This document shows positions 4,271-44,350 of a stretch of DNA of 44,350 bases, one piece after another. The position numbers and the translations under genes were made by a program. The notes under the pieces are model-generated. The model had not been told where the DNA came from, made no database searches, and saw nothing but the letters and a program-made list of their open reading frames with translations. Every line of letters begins with the position of its first letter. Position 1 is the first letter of the stretch. Source of the DNA: Puniceicoccales bacterium. GTDB taxonomy: Bacteria > Verrucomicrobiota > Verrucomicrobiia > Opitutales > LL51. The DNA lies in NCBI GenBank assembly GCA_031270475.1, contig JAISXO010000046.1:1-44350 (forward strand). Reading direction: 5' to 3'.

Positions 4271-5074
4271 ATGGAGAATGCGCTACGATTGGAATCTTTG
4301 GTTGTTGATTATAAAAATCGGCGTCTTTTCCCTCGGAAAAGAGGCGGTGTCGTACGGGCAGTTGATGGCGTTTCGATGGCCCTAAAATGGGGAAAAATTA
4401 TGGGAATTGTTGGCGAAAGCGGTAGCGGGAAATCTTCTTTGCTCAGAGCAATTTGTAAATTCGCTCCCGTTGAAAGTGGCCGCGTTTTTATCGAAAATGT
4501 CAATGTGACCAATTTTTCGGAGAAGGAATTTTTTCCCTATCGCAAAAAAATACAGATGATCCCTCAGGACTTTTGCGATACATTTAATCCCAAAATGACG
4601 GTTGAAAAAATTTTGGAAGAACCGTTGGAGATCCATTTTCCAGATCTAAATTCCAAAGAAAAAAAAATGCGCGTTCTCGAATTGTTGGAATCGGTGGAAT
4701 TGGATGAAGTCTTAATTGGTCGGTTTCCATCGCAATTGAGCGGAGGACAGCGGCAACGCATTTCCATCGCACGGGCTCTGGCAGTGAATCCTAAAATATT
4801 GATTTGCGATGAAATCGTGAGTGCCTGCGATCTGTATACGCAAAAACAGATTCTATTGCTTTTACGAAAACTTAACCAAATAAAGCGTCTTACAATGTTA
4901 TTTGTTTCACACAATATTGCCGTTGTCTCCTATTTGTGCCATGATATTGCGATAATGTGCCAAGGAAAAATTCTTGAACTTGGCCCTTCGGAAAAGCTCT
5001 GTGGAGTTTCTAGCAATAGCTATATGCGATCCCTGATCGATGCCATTCCCCGCTTAAAAATGATAGGAAAATAA
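4271..5074 (+). CDS. Oligopeptide/dipeptide ABC transporter ATP-binding protein (OppF/DppF-like)
   Basis: Walker A GESGSGKS, LSGGQRQR signature, ILICDE Walker B, SH switch. Confidence 0.92.
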   Translation: MENALRLESLVVDYKNRRLFPRKRGGVVRAVDGVSMALKWGKIMGIVGESGSGKSSLLRAICKFAPVESGRVFIENVNVTNFSEKEFFPYRKKIQMIPQDFCDTFNPKMTVEKILEEPLEIHFPDLNSKEKKMRVLELLESVELDEVLIGRFPSQLSGGQRQRISIARALAVNPKILICDEIVSACDLYTQKQILLLLRKLNQIKRLTMLFVSHNIAVVSYLCHDIAIMCQGKILELGPSEKLCGVSSNSYMRSLIDAIPRLKMIGK

Positions 5075-5128
5075 TTGATTTTGAGCTCCAGGTTTAATAA
5101 ATCTTAAAAATAAATATCTCATTTTCTA

Positions 5129-5190
5129 ACGTGCCGCTCGTTCTTACCCTCTACTTTTCAGCCTTGGAAGAAAAGTGAAAGCTGTCAAGT
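5129..5190 (-). promoter_or_regulatory. 62-bp dispersed promoter-leader element, copy A (TTGACA-N17-AAGGCT plus 31-nt G-rich leader), divergent from the pilin-like gene
   Basis: Aligns without gaps to 6184-6245(-), 18335-18396(+) and 21507-21568(+). Confidence 0.7.
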
Positions 5191-5241
5191 TGTTTCTGAA
5201 AAAATAATTTCCGAAAAATAAAAATATTTTGTATTTTCCAG

Positions 5242-5269
5242 TTGACACGATTTACGAAATCGCGATAAT
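5242..5269 (+). promoter_or_regulatory. Putative sigma70 promoter of the pilin-like gene (TTGACA-N16-GATAAT)
   Basis: TTGACA 5242-5247, GATAAT 5264-5269; the paralogous loci keep the -35 but have lost the -10 region. Confidence 0.6.
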
Positions 5270-5286
5270 CATTATATGGTTTATTT

Positions 5287-5381
5287 ACAATGCAACAATG
5301 CAACAATGCAACAATGCAACAATGCAACAATGCAACAATGCAACAATGCAACAATGCAACAATGCAACAATGCAACAATGC
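5287..5381 (+). repeat. Perfect 8-bp tandem repeat (ACAATGCA) x ~11.9 containing 12 ATGs
   Basis: Read directly from the sequence; overlaps the translation start of the pilin-like gene. Confidence 0.98.
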
Positions 5382-6161
5382 GTAAAAAGTAAAAGTAAAT
5401 CTTTTACGCTGATTGAGATCGTTTTTACGATTTCCATCATTGGTATTTTGTTAGCCATTTTATTGCCCGCAATGAGTGCCATCAAACTCAATGCGCAGAA
5501 AGTAAAAGATCAGTCGAATTTACGAAAAATCGCCGAGGCCTGGAAAACTTTTTATGTGGAAAAAGGTATAGGTCATATAGGATCTGGGGATTGTACTGCT
5601 CTGGATATGGTTGCATCTTATGCTGGTACTTGGTGGAAAGATGGGCCCGTGTTAATAAATGATCCTCACGTTTATGTTTCCTCGGCTGATCGTTACGCTT
5701 CTCCCGTTCTCGGAGAGTCCGTTCTTGGCGATTTTCCCGGTGGGTTCCAGGGTACGGCCTTCAAGGCGGTTAATAATTTTCTGACAGATGGTGAAAGCGT
5801 CGTATTTAGTTATTGCCTCATTGATCGAATTGAGATCAGTGTTCCCCTGGAAACAACACCCATTGCCTTTACCCGTGGACTCAAAGAAAATGGCCTTTGG
5901 GACGAAAAAGCAGGCCTTTATGGCGCGAAAGGAGGCTTTGTTGTTTTCGGGGACGGTCACATAAGCTGGTTCGATGGAAGTAAACCAGCAAAATTCCTGA
6001 AATGGGATGGGTCGGGTTATACGAATAACATTGTGGAAGCATTACCTGCTGCCGGATATGGATTCGATGGAGCTTACATTGGCGCTGGATTTTATTTGCC
6101 AAGCGACTTAGAGAGTGAGCAGGACGGTTCGCGGATTTTGCTTAATGTAAACTACACCTGA
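5370..6161 (+). CDS. Prepilin-type N-terminal cleavage/methylation domain protein (pilin/pseudopilin-like, PVC 'DGH' family); only intact member of its variable subfamily
   Basis: MQQCVKSKSKS|FTLIE, hydrophobic helix, TPIAFTRGL, FGDGH; in-frame ATGs at 5298, 5322, 5346 and 5370, so the true start is uncertain. Confidence 0.85.
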   Translation: MQQCVKSKSKSFTLIEIVFTISIIGILLAILLPAMSAIKLNAQKVKDQSNLRKIAEAWKTFYVEKGIGHIGSGDCTALDMVASYAGTWWKDGPVLINDPHVYVSSADRYASPVLGESVLGDFPGGFQGTAFKAVNNFLTDGESVVFSYCLIDRIEISVPLETTPIAFTRGLKENGLWDEKAGLYGAKGGFVVFGDGHISWFDGSKPAKFLKWDGSGYTNNIVEALPAAGYGFDGAYIGAGFYLPSDLESEQDGSRILLNVNYT

Positions 6162-6183
6162 TTTTACTTGGTGCGTAATTTTT

Positions 6184-6245
6184 GTGTGCCACTCGCTCCC
6201 GCTCTTTACTTTCTAGCCTGTCTACCATTTATAAAACTGTTAAGT
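6184..6245 (-). promoter_or_regulatory. 62-bp promoter-leader element, copy B (TTAACA-N17-CAGGCT plus leader), pointing antisense into the 3' end of the pilin-like gene
   Basis: Direct repeat of copy A on the other side of the gene. Confidence 0.65.
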
Positions 6246-6339
6246 AATTTTTTTTAATTAATAAAAAATAAATCCTTTGCTTCGAAAAAGAATAATAGGT
6301 TGCATGTGTGTGTAAAGTTGCATCGTAGATGAAAATAGT

Positions 6340-7107
6340 ATGGATCGTATGAGCGAAAAATTGGGGAGTTTGTTTGCCGAAGCACGCCAAAAAAAAGGGC
6401 TTTCGCTGGATGAAGTGGCGGAAGCGATACACATTAAAGCGGAATATTTGGAAGCAATTGAAAATGAGCAATTTGATTTCAATTTGCCCGATATTTATCG
6501 CCGTGGGTTTTATAAGTCCTATGCCGATTTCCTTGGGCTAGATCGGGAGGCAATAATGCTCAAATGTCCTATTAAATCATTTGAAACACTGGAATCTTCT
6601 CAGAAACGTCGAGATATGGTGTCGCAGGTCGCCAAAAAAACGCAGGAAGTAAATCTCGATCAGGTAAAAACTTCATTTTCAGATGACATAGATGGAGCTC
6701 AGGAAGACTTTCAATCCCGGACCATGGACAGTATAACAGCCATAAAAATGATAGGTGTCATTGGTGGAACCGTTTTGCTTGTTTCGCTGCTGATATACCT
6801 AATTATTAGCATTGTTTCTCGTCCAAACCTATCGCCTTCAAAGGCCACACAACAGGAAAATATTAGTGCAATTGTTGAAAAGAAAATCACTATGCGAGCC
6901 AGTGGAGACGTCAAAGTGATGGTACGTTCCGAGGAAGATAAGGCGAAATTATTTTCAGGAATGGTACAAAAGGGTACGGAACAGATCGTTACCTATAGGG
7001 CACCGATTCAAATTTTCTTTGATCGGGGAGAGTTTTTGGTCATTGAATTAGCCAATGGGGAGTTTCTTCATCCCGACTCGGGACGCGGAGGCATTCAAAT
7101 AAAATAA
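6340..7107 (+). CDS. rodZ: RodZ-like HTH / transmembrane cell-shape protein
   Basis: N-terminal XRE HTH (LSLDEVAEAIHIKAEYLEAIE; YRRGFYKSYADFLGL), one TM segment, C-terminal beta domain. Confidence 0.75.
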   Translation: MDRMSEKLGSLFAEARQKKGLSLDEVAEAIHIKAEYLEAIENEQFDFNLPDIYRRGFYKSYADFLGLDREAIMLKCPIKSFETLESSQKRRDMVSQVAKKTQEVNLDQVKTSFSDDIDGAQEDFQSRTMDSITAIKMIGVIGGTVLLVSLLIYLIISIVSRPNLSPSKATQQENISAIVEKKITMRASGDVKVMVRSEEDKAKLFSGMVQKGTEQIVTYRAPIQIFFDRGEFLVIELANGEFLHPDSGRGGIQIK

Positions 7108-18017: not shown

Positions 18018-18262
18018 TACATAACTATTTGCATAGCATTTCCGTCCACCCATGGCGTTCTAAAACCTTTTTCTATGTAATAAATTTTCCAACCCTCGGC
18101 GATTTTTTGCGAATTGGATTGGTCTTTTACCTTTTGTGCTTTGAGTTTTATGGCACTCATTGCCGACAGAAGAATCGCTAGTAAAATGCCGATGGCGGAA
18201 ATAGTAAAAACAATTTCAACTAATGCAAAGGATTTACTTTTACTCTTTACGCGTTGCTGCGT
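18014..18262 (-). pseudogene. N-terminal half of a pilin-like gene with ACG in place of ATG and no -10 box
   Basis: (T)QQRVKSKSKSFALVEIVFTISAIGILLAILLSAMSAIKLKAQKVKDQSNSQKIAEGWKIYYIEKG...; nearly identical to 35440-35620. Confidence 0.88.
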
Positions 18263-18334
18263 TGTGAATTAATCGTGTCAAGAGGAAAATACAAATTTTT
18301 TTATTTTTTGGAAATTATTTTTTCGGAAAAAATC

Positions 18335-43981: not shown

Positions 43982-44350
43982 ATGAGTGAAATAAAAATCA
44001 ATACCAGCGATACAAATACAAAACCGGTTCGAGCGGAATCGGTTCCAATGAAGGTTCGGGAGCCGCTTGATGTGCGAGATGTGGATCATTTTCAAGCCCT
44101 TTTAGGCGAGCGAGTCGAAGGCGATCAAAAGAAAGATTCCAAGCGGGATTCGAAAAAGGACGAAACCGGACTGAAAGAATCTAGAGATAATCTTCTTGTT
44201 TTTGGAGTAGATTTAGGAGATAAGGTAGGAGATAAGGTAGAGAAGGAAGAGGTAAAGGATTTAGGAGATAAGGTAGGAGATAAGGTAGAGAAGGAAGAGG
44301 TAAAGGATTTAGGAGATAAGGTAGGAGATAAGGTAGAGAAGGAAGAGGTA
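43982..44350 (+). CDS. Partial ORF, open at the window end; putative SctP needle-length ruler
   Basis: GGAGG RBS; MSEIKINTSDTNTKPVRAES... with no stop; follows sctN-sctO; absent from the ORF track because it is truncated. Confidence 0.6.
   Translation, partial: MSEIKINTSDTNTKPVRAESVPMKVREPLDVRDVDHFQALLGERVEGDQKKDSKRDSKKDETGLKESRDNLLVFGVDLGDKVGDKVEKEEVKDLGDKVGDKVEKEEVKDLGDKVGDKVEKEEV
44210..44350 (+). repeat. Perfect 48-bp in-frame tandem repeat (DLGDKVGDKVEKEEVK), at least 2.9 copies
   Basis: Units start at 44210, 44258 and 44306. Confidence 0.97.

What the first reader, a model, noticed from the sequence alone, without database searches (positions are those of the whole stretch)
5287..5385. 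Start-codon-containing 8-bp repeat: candidate phase-variation switch on the pilin-like gene
Seen: (ACAATGCA)x11.9 provides 12 ATGs cycling through all three frames. The paralogs have only a 2-unit equivalent (ACAACGCAGCAACGC), which places the ancestral start at the first unit. With 12 ATGs the first one (5290) is out of frame and stops at TAA 5383; the last gives MRKK*. With 2, 5, 8 or 11 ATG-bearing units the first ATG would be in frame. Extra MQQCNNAT units fall in the leader removed at S|FTLIE if that site is processed, so the mature protein would be unchanged. Inference: slipped-strand ON/OFF contingency locus, or a rheostat if internal ATGs (5298, 5322, 5346, 5370) also initiate.
Basis: partly seen in the sequence, partly recalled or inferred. 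Interest (0 to 1): 0.8.

Follow-up and report, generated by a model that had tools for sequence, protein, structure and literature searches.

The report
Repeat-switched pilin-like gene, currently off
A perfect run of twelve 8-base repeats sits just after the start codon of a pilus-subunit-like gene in an uncultured Verrucomicrobium and most likely acts as a slippage-driven on/off switch, the kind of device best known from pathogens such as Neisseria.

Summary
The repeat is real: (ACAATGCA)x11.9, 100% perfect, window 5287-5381. It lies in the leader-coding part of a prepilin-like gene (N_methyl motif, FTLIEI at 5403, stop 6161).

It sits 6 nt after a TTGACA-16-GATAAT promoter, where transcription should start. 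Paralogs here and in five congeneric Puniceicoccales genomes share this promoter and ATG, then carry different 8-nt (one 5-nt) repeats at the same spot. Copy numbers run from 2 to 22 and frame states are mixed: 19 of 41 scorable copies are in frame, and 5 of 15 with five or more units.

This fits an opa-like slipped-strand translational switch. With 12 units the copy is out of frame with ATG 5276, giving a 38-residue peptide. It would be in frame at 10 or 13 units, not at 2/5/8/11.

The ATG inside the unit looks incidental: one C-to-T change from the paralogs' ACAACGCA. The in-frame internal ATGs could still give leaky expression.

No read or population data could be obtained, so switching itself is inferred. 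Earlier reports of this scan reached the same reading on other copies and genomes (e1-2075882, e1-2302659, e1-2587792).

The parts
5123..5189 (+). Upstream copy of a genome-wide intergenic repeat element of about 70 nt. It flanks the pilin cassette on the left.
   Evidence: 42 copies in the 968-kb genome match a 19-nt core with at most 4 mismatches. The core here is at 5136.
5196..5241 (+). AT-rich region upstream of the -35 hexamer, conserved among paralogs (UP-element-like; this role is inferred).
   Evidence: Upstream sequences of the paralogs.
5242..5269 (+). Sigma-70-type promoter: TTGACA, 16 nt, GATAAT.
   Evidence: 11 of 12 consensus matches, the best site in 4900-6400. The same module stands before the paralogs.
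5276..5278 (+). Conserved family start codon at the predicted transcription start (leaderless AUG). It is out of frame with the pilin ORF at 12 units.
   Evidence: It lies 6 nt after the -10 box. The spacing from the -35 start to the ATG is 34 nt in 22 of 41 copies and 33-35 nt in 29 of 41. The distance from ATG to the F codon is 127 nt, so mod 3 = 1. The translation ends at 5392.
5279..5286 (+). 8-nt linker between the start codon and the repeat.
   Evidence: aligned by eye with the paralogs.
5287..5382 (+). Octanucleotide array: 11 perfect ACAATGCA units plus a twelfth ending in G. This is the proposed slippage tract. It is free of stop codons in all three frames.
   Evidence: Stop-free test.
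5298..5372 (+). Four internal ATGs in the pilin frame (5298, 5322, 5346, 5370). They are possible weak alternative starts.
   Evidence: One public gene call starts at 5298 (287 aa) and another at TTG 5229 (310 aa).
5383..5392 (+). TAA stops that close both non-pilin frames just after the repeat: 5383-5385 and 5390-5392.
5382..5402 (+). Lys/Ser-rich end of the leader (VKSKSKS), directly before the F(+1) codon.
   Evidence: It is conserved in the paralogs.
5403..6161 (+). Coding region of the mature pilin-like protein (FTLIEI..., 252 codons) plus the stop codon.
   Evidence: N_methyl PF07963 scores 24.8 bits against a cut-off of 21.2. The copy keeps all 34 columns that are invariant across the family. 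The AlphaFold model has pLDDT 90.8, with an N-terminal helix at 4-56 and a beta head.
6177..6244 (+). Downstream copy of the same intergenic repeat element, flanking the cassette on the right.
   Evidence: core at 6191. The cassette is absent between the same two neighbour genes in all 13 congeners.
35421..36184 (+). Decayed paralog. It has 2 units (ACAACGCA, GCAACGCG), has lost the -10 box and the ATG, and its body is frameshifted.
18059..18290 (-). Paralog fragment of about 60 codons with the same deletion of the -10 box and ATG.

Best explanation
The octamer array is the hypermutable tract of a slipped-strand translational switch on a prepilin-like gene. Transcription from TTGACA-16-GATAAT (5242-5269) should start at or next to A5276, giving an mRNA that begins with AUG (inferred). 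Ribosomes starting there read an 8-nt linker and then the repeat. The repeat has no stop in any frame and encodes part of an N-terminal leader that stays cytoplasmic and, if the site is processed, is cut off before F(+1). Because 8 is not a multiple of 3, gain or loss of one unit during replication shifts the frame. With 12 units, translation from 5276 ends at TAA 5390 after 38 residues (OFF). With 10 or 13 units it would run into the pilin frame (ON), giving a leader of 37 or 45 residues. Two TAA codons directly after the array close both wrong frames. The gene is one member of a birth-and-death family, with about 7 promoter-bearing copies here and up to 27 matches in congeners. Each copy has its own array, so a population would display random subsets of these surface or periplasmic pilin-like proteins. 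In this copy the unit happens to contain ATG, so the in-frame internal ATGs may add low constitutive expression. Shown directly: the anatomy, the family-wide architecture, the differing copy numbers between paralogs and the mixed frame states. Inferred: the transcription start, slippage in living cells, the effect on expression and leader cleavage.
For: (1) The array is perfect and 95 nt long, against 0.00 expected by chance. Paralog flanks differ by 6-36%, so the array is younger than its surroundings. (2) The arrays are specific to one position. The only three 100%-perfect octamer arrays with at least 4 copies in the 968-kb genome (C8, C44, C54; one search listed 33 arrays of period 12 or less with at least 4 copies, from 691 TRF rows) all lie at this same spot in family members. 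(3) The ATG is conserved at a fixed distance from the promoter: 34 nt in 22 of 41 copies, 33-35 nt in 29 of 41. Genome-wide, TTGAC piles up 34-40 nt before crude gene starts (50 of 139 occurrences in 7 of 115 positions). Shine-Dalgarno-like motifs are rare (23% against 12% background, 482 crude starts). Leaderless or near-leaderless starts are therefore plausible in this organism. (4) Of 21 distinct units (20 octamers, 1 pentamer), 0 contain a stop codon in any frame of the coding strand, against 33% of random genomic octamers. This is what one expects if the array is translated. (5) Paralogs with the same unit have different copy numbers: ACAAAACG 3, 3, 4, 4, 4, 5, 7; CAACG 6.6, 12.6, at least 13.2, 21.6; CAGAAATG 6.8 and 7.8; CAGAAGTG 10.4 and 15.6; GGCATACA 3.2 and 9.5. 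(6) Frame states: among arrays of at least 5 units, 5 of 15 are in frame, the 1/3 expected for free switching. Among shorter or absent arrays, 14 of 26 are in frame. OFF copies fall in both wrong frames (8 and 14), so there is no uniform programmed frameshift. (7) OFF copies, this one included, keep intact ORFs of 230-270 codons, and this copy keeps all 34 family-invariant residues. (8) The machinery is present: an A24 prepilin peptidase and three T2SS-E/PilB-type ATPases. MutS and MutL are also present, so the arrays are not a by-product of lost mismatch repair. (9) The design is proven elsewhere: opa CTCTT repeats in the leader-peptide coding sequence (PMC3745409, passages) and licA CAAT repeats that align start codons with the ORF (PMC2212159, passages).
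Against: There are no population data. This protein's 90% cluster holds only the window's own two gene calls, and all 105 homolog clusters sit on one contig each, so variation in copy number at one locus has not been seen. Twelve of 26 copies with short or no arrays are also out of frame. These include 2-unit copies in three species with the same 47-nt ATG-to-F spacing. They cannot switch often and point to decay rather than regulation for part of the family. Fragments and frameshifted copies are common. The transcription start is inferred from promoter geometry only. The stop-free statistic is weakened because the units are related to each other and poor in T (8% T), and the complementary strand also has stops in only 2 of 21 units. 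Four in-frame internal ATGs could make this copy constitutively expressed. The residue before F(+1) is Ser or Ala in 43 of 43 members and never the canonical Gly, so leader cleavage is uncertain. The sequence is a metagenome-assembled consensus.
Confidence: 0.62

Rival explanations
1. The gene is effectively always on, or graded rather than switched. Translation starts at one of the in-frame ATGs inside the repeat (5298, 5322, 5346, 5370). Because every third unit supplies an in-frame ATG at any copy number of 3 or more, repeat length changes only the leader length or the expression level (rheostat).
For: In-frame ATGs are present. One public gene call starts at 5298. Shine-Dalgarno-like motifs are rare before crude gene starts (23% against 12% control), so a start without one is normal here. 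The leader RNA is no more structured than shuffles (z = -0.18). In licA, different start codons give different outcomes (PMC2212159).
Against: Only 2 of 21 family units contain ATG, no more than chance, so the family design cannot depend on internal starts. The ATG here differs by one C-to-T change from the paralogs' ACAACGCA. The conserved, promoter-locked ATG 5276 and the out-of-frame ATGs at 5290 and beyond would compete with them. Both wrong frames are closed right after the array, as in true switches.
Confidence: 0.15
2. This is a decaying or neutral copy. The family is undergoing birth and death in a reduced genome. The array is a selectively neutral microsatellite that expanded from a proto-repeat, and the out-of-frame state is simply the first step of pseudogenisation.
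For: The cassette is a species-specific insertion, absent between the same neighbour genes in 13 of 13 congeners. Two other copies in the window are clearly dead. In this genome 5 of 6 scorable full-length copies are out of frame. Copies with only 2 units are out of frame in three species.
Against: The 252-codon ORF is intact and keeps all 34 invariant family residues. The array is perfect, whereas decaying tracts such as the 2-unit copies are interrupted. The arrays recur at one position with 21 different units and are never seen elsewhere in the genome. Mismatch repair genes are present.
Confidence: 0.13
3. The frame is restored without any DNA change, by programmed ribosomal frameshifting or transcriptional slippage on the A-runs just after the repeat.
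For: A5, A4 and A3 runs and stops in both wrong frames lie at 5384-5399. Some paralogs have A7-A9 runs.
Against: Out-of-frame copies need a +1 shift in some cases and a -1 shift in others (8 against 14 of 22), and the window copy and C53 need opposite shifts. There is no canonical slippery heptamer and no stimulatory structure. Nothing in Rfam matches: the only hit is mir-33 at 18.3 bits against a gathering score of 50.
Confidence: 0.03
4. The copy number is an assembly artefact and the real number is in frame.
For: The genome is a 55-contig metagenome assembly. Contigs often break at family members.
Against: The array lies 5 kb inside a 44-kb contig with unique flanks. The same architecture recurs in independent assemblies of five other species.
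Confidence: 0.03

Closest known systems
Neisseria opa genes (CTCTT pentamer repeats in the leader-peptide coding sequence; about 11 copies per genome)
   Same: The repeat lies in the part that encodes a leader removed from the mature protein. The unit length is not a multiple of 3. It is a multigene family of surface proteins, each copy with its own array, in mixed ON and OFF states (PMC3745409, passages read).
   Different: The units are octamers (one pentamer) of at least 21 different sequences rather than one shared pentamer. The leader is a class III (prepilin) type, not a Sec signal peptide. The start codon appears to be at the transcript's 5' end. The host is an uncultured Verrucomicrobium, not a pathogen. 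Switching has not been measured.
Haemophilus influenzae licA (lic1A) CAAT tetranucleotide switch
   Same: The repeats sit just downstream of the start codons, and the copy number decides which start codon, if any, is in frame (PMC2212159, passages read). This is the nearest precedent for the 'several ATGs' reading.
   Different: In licA the alternative ATGs lie upstream of the array. Here the extra ATGs are inside the unit and look incidental. licA is a single gene and not a pilin.
Octanucleotide GCATCATC repeats upstream of hmw1A/hmw2A in H. influenzae biogroup aegyptius
   Same: The unit is 8 nt with 12-15 copies, and the number differs between strains (PMC3309571, passage read). Octamer tracts are therefore accepted candidates for phase variation. 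See also the criteria in PMC7383803.
   Different: Those repeats lie in the putative promoter region and would act on transcription, not within the translated leader.
Neisseria pilC poly-G tract in the signal-peptide coding region (recalled; no call made)
   Same: It is a pilus-associated gene switched by a frameshifting tract in its leader-coding part.
   Different: It uses a homopolymer rather than an octamer and has two copies rather than a large family. I did not check a paper for this.

Membership tests
Simple-sequence-repeat contingency locus (translational phase variation by slipped-strand mispairing) | A perfect tandem repeat, with unit length not divisible by 3, lies inside the translated region downstream of the start codon. 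| tested here: met
   8-nt unit, 11.9 copies, 100% perfect. It starts 8 nt after the conserved ATG 5276.
Simple-sequence-repeat contingency locus (translational phase variation by slipped-strand mispairing) | The repeat number at the same locus varies among cells or strains. | not testable with these tools
   No other allele of this locus could be found. Only differences between paralogs were seen.
Simple-sequence-repeat contingency locus (translational phase variation by slipped-strand mispairing) | A change in repeat number switches expression. | not testable with these tools
   The only support is frame arithmetic: 127 nt from ATG to the F codon, in frame at n = 10 or 13. One natural in-frame paralog with 4 units exists (C20).
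Simple-sequence-repeat contingency locus (translational phase variation by slipped-strand mispairing) | Wrong frames terminate soon after the tract, while the tract itself is open in all frames. | tested here: met
   TAA at 5383 and 5390. 0 of 21 units carry a stop.
Type IV pilin / T2SS pseudopilin (class III signal peptide, PF07963) | N-terminal methylation motif with F at +1, E at +5 and a hydrophobic helix. | tested here: met
   PF07963 scores 24.8 bits against a cut-off of 21.2. F(+1) and E(+5) are present in 43 of 43 members. The model has a helix at 4-56.
Type IV pilin / T2SS pseudopilin (class III signal peptide, PF07963) | Gly at -1 of the prepilin peptidase cleavage site. | tested here: not met
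   Ser in 33 of 43, Ala in 10 of 43, Gly in 0 of 43. Six of the eight other pilin-motif genes in this genome (motif hits outside this family and excluding one non-pilin match) have Gly at -1; two have Ser.
Type IV pilin / T2SS pseudopilin (class III signal peptide, PF07963) | Pilin fold: an N-terminal helix packed on a beta-sheet head. | tested here: inconclusive
   With VIA-align the top rows are pilins and pseudopilins, but weak: PilA4 Z 4.5, rmsd 3.9, 118 aligned; EpsG Z 4.2; PulG Z 3.9. Foldseek against the PDB gave nothing at E <= 0.001.
Type IV pilin / T2SS pseudopilin (class III signal peptide, PF07963) | A prepilin peptidase and an assembly ATPase are encoded in the genome. | tested here: met
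   PF01478 scores 48.9 bits at C22:9845-10192. Three PF00437 matches are above cut-off.
DUF1559 / H-X9-DG prepilin-associated proteins (PF07596, TIGR04294) | A match to the family model. | tested here: inconclusive
   PF07596 matched 2 of 43 family members at E <= 1 and not the window protein. No NCBIfam hit of this kind appeared at E <= 0.01. One source nevertheless names many homologs 'H-X9-DG protein'.
Leaderless mRNA | The start codon is at the transcription start. | tested here: inconclusive
   The ATG lies 6 nt after the -10 box, with family-wide fixed spacing, and there is a genome-wide TTGAC peak at -34 to -40. No 5' end has been mapped.

The most novel reading that the evidence does not exclude
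A genome-reduced, uncultured Verrucomicrobium devotes 1-3% of its genome to a combinatorial coat of pilin-like proteins. Each is gated by its own private octamer tract on a leaderless mRNA. In this copy a point mutation put an ATG into the unit and turned a binary switch into a three-level one. The level is high when the 5'-terminal AUG is in frame and low when only internal AUGs are in frame, and the gene is never fully off. This would be a natural example of a contingency locus evolving into a rheostat, outside any pathogen.
Probability: 0.18. Interest if true: 0.65.

Novelty: new member of a known kind. Interest (0 to 1): 0.5.

Why it matters
Contingency loci are regarded as a hallmark of host-adapted pathogens. 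Finding an opa-like system in uncultured Puniceicoccales with genomes of about 1 Mb would extend the principle to another phylum and lifestyle. The system here has up to 27 copies per genome, private octamer tracts and apparently leaderless starts. It would imply strong fluctuating selection on pilus-like surface structures, for example from attachment partners or from phages that use pili. There is also a practical point. Gene callers mis-start these genes (287 aa and 310 aa for this locus) or label them frameshifted, so the family is invisible in annotation. My literature searches found no description of it. I searched Puniceicoccales/termite/reduced genome, octanucleotide repeat/phase variation, Nucleococcus/Verrucomicrobia/termite and leaderless/phase variation/SSR/signal peptide. 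Only listings and abstracts were seen for those hits.

Tried and rejected
No RNA holder was listed.
- Metagenome scan: I scanned with the 22-nt junction of the 5' flank and the first unit. It gave one hit (L055) that is an unrelated chance match with no repeat. No second scan was allowed.
- Exact look-up of five possible products: only the window's own two gene calls were found.
- Homolog search: 105 proteins at E <= 1e-30 among 614 candidates, every cluster on a single contig, so no multi-sample alleles. Sixteen of the 105 were read. They show gene calls running through the promoter and further leaders with an 8-residue period.
- Genome-contig scan: only one relative was returned (L056), which gave the name 'Puniceicoccales bacterium'.
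- Syntenic orthologs: none exist, because the cassette is absent between the ABC-ATPase and RodZ-like genes in the 13 congeners.
- Invertible-promoter reading: rejected. The flanking elements are direct repeats, and the only inverted pairs are a weak AT-rich 23-mer (78%) and a palindrome.
- Known RNA family: none.
- Leader RNA structure: not different from shuffles.
- Foldseek against the PDB: no match at E <= 0.001.
- Uniform programmed frameshift: rejected, because both shift directions would be needed.
- Rows dropped before the ON/OFF count: 18 of 59 motif hits were left out. Fifteen had no recognisable promoter plus ATG or lay at a contig end. L002 had an ORF of 51 codons, L031+1833 an ORF of 191 codons, and L008 has a conventional upstream region that my rule mis-called. 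For L031+772, L042, L047, L003, L009 and C23 the choice among neighbouring ATGs is uncertain. For L003, L009 and C23 the ON/OFF call is the same either way.

Full report
OBSERVATION. Window 5287-5381 holds (ACAATGCA)x11.9 with 100% matches and no indels (TRF score 190). A twelfth unit, ACAATGCG, ends at 5382. A three-unit probe finds 10 overlapping matches, against 0.00 in 100 dinucleotide-preserving shuffles. There are twelve ATGs (5290 to 5378). ATG 5290 runs to TAA 5383. The frame of ATG 5378 ends MRKK* at TAA 5390. ATGs 5298, 5322, 5346 and 5370 are in the frame of the long ORF 5229-6161.

THE GENE. The ORF encodes a prepilin-like protein. PF07963 N_methyl scores 24.8 bits against a cut-off of 21.2, and there are weak hits to PilA, GspG and ComGC models. 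An alignment of 43 family members has 34 invariant columns, all kept by this copy. It gives a confident model (pLDDT 90.8, pTM 0.87) with a long N-terminal helix (4-56) and a beta head. The best structural neighbours are pilins and pseudopilins, but only weakly: PilA4 Z 4.5, EpsG Z 4.2, PulG Z 3.9. Foldseek found nothing at E <= 0.001. F(+1) and E(+5) are present in 43 of 43 members. The residue at -1 is Ser (33) or Ala (10) and never Gly, so cleavage by the genome's A24 peptidase is plausible but unproven. Three PilB/GspE-type ATPases are present.

A strong promoter, TTGACA-16-GATAAT at 5242-5269 (11 of 12 matches), is followed 6 nt later by ATG 5276. That is upstream of the repeat, where transcription should begin. 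The whole genome (968 kb, 55 contigs; the window is contig C8) holds about seven copies with the same module. The module reads: promoter, ATG, an 8-nt linker, an octamer array, a Lys/Ser-rich tail with TAA codons in both wrong frames, then FTL(I/V)E. The units differ between copies:
- GCAACGCA x3.9 (C20)
- GAATCAAC x10.9 (C44)
- AATCGAAA x4.2 (C54)
- GCAAGACA x2.5 (C23)
- two GCAAAGCA-like units (C53)

The only three perfect octamer arrays of at least 4 copies in the genome are at this position in this family. The window unit differs from the paralogs' ACAACGCA by one C-to-T change, and that change creates its ATG. They are otherwise broken as well.

THE GENUS. All 31 related genomes searched have a match to the protein. 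Matches per genome in the 13 congeners (0.6-1.1 Mb) range from 2 to 27. One congener is titled 'MAG: Puniceicoccales bacterium', and public names of homologs agree. I fetched 53 loci from relatives and scanned them together with G000, finding 59 family-type motifs.

Forty-one of the 59 had a recognisable promoter plus ATG and an ORF of at least 200 codons. The 18 dropped rows are listed under Tried and rejected. The results for the 41 are:
- The spacing from the -35 start to the ATG is 34 nt in 22 copies and 33-35 nt in 29.
- Arrays occur in G000, G006, G009, G010, G011 and G012, with 21 distinct units: 20 octamers and the pentamer CAACG.
- No unit has a stop in any frame of the coding strand, against 33% of random genomic octamers. 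The units are related and poor in T, and the complement has stops in only 2 of 21, so this test is weaker than its nominal P of 3e-4.
- Two of the 21 units contain ATG, which is what chance predicts (13.5%).
- Paralogs sharing a unit differ in copy number: ACAAAACG 3-7, CAACG 6.6-21.6, CAGAAGTG 10.4 and 15.6, GGCATACA 3.2 and 9.5, CAGAAATG 6.8 and 7.8.
- Relative to the conserved ATG, 5 of 15 copies with at least 5 units are in frame, and 14 of 26 copies with shorter or no arrays are in frame. Out-of-frame copies fall in both wrong frames (8 and 14).
- In G000, one of six scorable full-length copies (C20, 4 units) is in frame.

THIS COPY. The distance from ATG 5276 to the F codon at 5403 is 127 nt (mod 3 = 1), so at 12 units translation from 5276 gives a 38-residue peptide. 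In-frame states are n = 1, 4, 7, 10, 13, giving leaders of 37 residues at n = 10 and 45 at n = 13. In-frame copies elsewhere have leaders of 8-36 residues. The cassette lies between two direct copies of an intergenic element of about 70 nt (42 copies genome-wide). It is absent between the same ABC-ATPase and RodZ-like genes in 13 of 13 congeners, so it arrived recently.

SUPPORT FOR A LEADERLESS START. Genome-wide, TTGAC accumulates 34-40 nt before crude gene starts: 50 of 139 occurrences fall in 7 of 115 positions, across 610 starts. Shine-Dalgarno-like motifs precede only 23% of 482 crude starts, against 12% in a control stretch. The same scarcity means the internal ATGs of this copy cannot be dismissed as starts. 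The leader RNA is no more structured than shuffles.

ALTERNATIVES.
- A uniform programmed frameshift is unlikely, because both shift directions would be needed.
- No Rfam family matches.
- There is no invertible-promoter signature.
- Mismatch-repair genes are present.
- Decay is real for part of the family: there are fragments, and 2-unit copies are out of frame in three species. It remains a rival for this copy, although the perfect array and the intact, fully conserved ORF argue against it.

WHAT IS MISSING. No sequencing run could be listed. The metagenome scan gave only a chance hit. The protein collection holds this locus once. Variation in copy number at one locus, the transcription start and the effect on expression are therefore all inferred.

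COMPARISON. The design matches Neisseria opa, which has CTCTT repeats in the leader-peptide coding sequence, about 11 genes and switching of about 1e-3 per generation (PMC3745409, passages). It also matches H. influenzae licA, where CAAT repeats align start codons with the ORF (PMC2212159, passages). Octamer tracts have a precedent upstream of hmwA (PMC3309571, passage). I therefore file it as a new member of a known kind. Earlier reports of this scan reached the same reading on another copy of this genome (e1-2075882) and in other Puniceicoccales genomes (e1-2302659, e1-2587792, e1-2587790). They are AI notes, not independent evidence, and I had reached my reading before I opened them.

Noticed in passing
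window 5123-5189 and 6177-6244, also 18389(-) and 21561(-); 42 copies in G000: An intergenic repeat element of about 70 nt, with a conserved C-rich core and a terminal CTGTCAAG, is scattered through the genome. It brackets the pilin cassette as direct repeats, which suggests that cassettes move by recombination between element copies. An earlier scan note (e1-2075872) reads the opposite strand as a promoter-like mobile repeat.
   Followed up: partly
G000:C44:6546-6632: This is the second long perfect octamer array, (GAATCAAC)x10.9, at the same position in a paralog. It is also out of frame with its promoter-proximal ATG (6538) and would come into frame by loss of one unit or gain of two.
   Followed up: partly
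G000:C10:65279-65289: A poly-C tract of 11 lies at the junction of a 1093-codon ORF and an overlapping 241-codon ORF in another frame. The first ORF has a hydrophobic pilin-like N-terminus. This may be a homopolymer frameshift switch in a large gene.
   Followed up: no
window 44210-44350: A perfect 48-nt tandem repeat (2.9 copies) runs into the contig end. A similar Lys/Glu/Gly-coding 12-nt periodic array sits at the start of contig C55.
   Followed up: no
G000, many contigs: There are dozens of tandem duplications of 100-380 nt (about 2-7 copies, 75-98% identical, most above 87%), many at gene borders. This is unusual for a 1-Mb genome. Earlier scan notes describe the same habit (e1-2075875).
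   Followed up: no
G000 genome-wide: TTGAC peaks sharply 34-40 nt upstream of crude ATG starts, and Shine-Dalgarno-like motifs are scarce. This suggests that leaderless or very short-leader mRNAs are common in this organism.
   Followed up: partly
window 29988-31973 (-): Three tandem pilin or pseudopilin genes have the canonical Gly at -1 and ordinary upstream regions. They contrast with the expanded family, which has Ser or Ala at -1.
   Followed up: no
L006 (G007:C12), leader of a family member: A congener without octamer arrays carries an A9 homopolymer between the promoter-proximal ATG and the F codon. It is one base out of frame (29 nt), so it may be a homopolymer version of the same switch.
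   Followed up: no
window 5229-6161: Public gene calls disagree on the start of this gene: 287 aa from ATG 5298 and 310 aa from TTG 5229, the latter reading through the promoter. Neither uses ATG 5276.
   Followed up: yes
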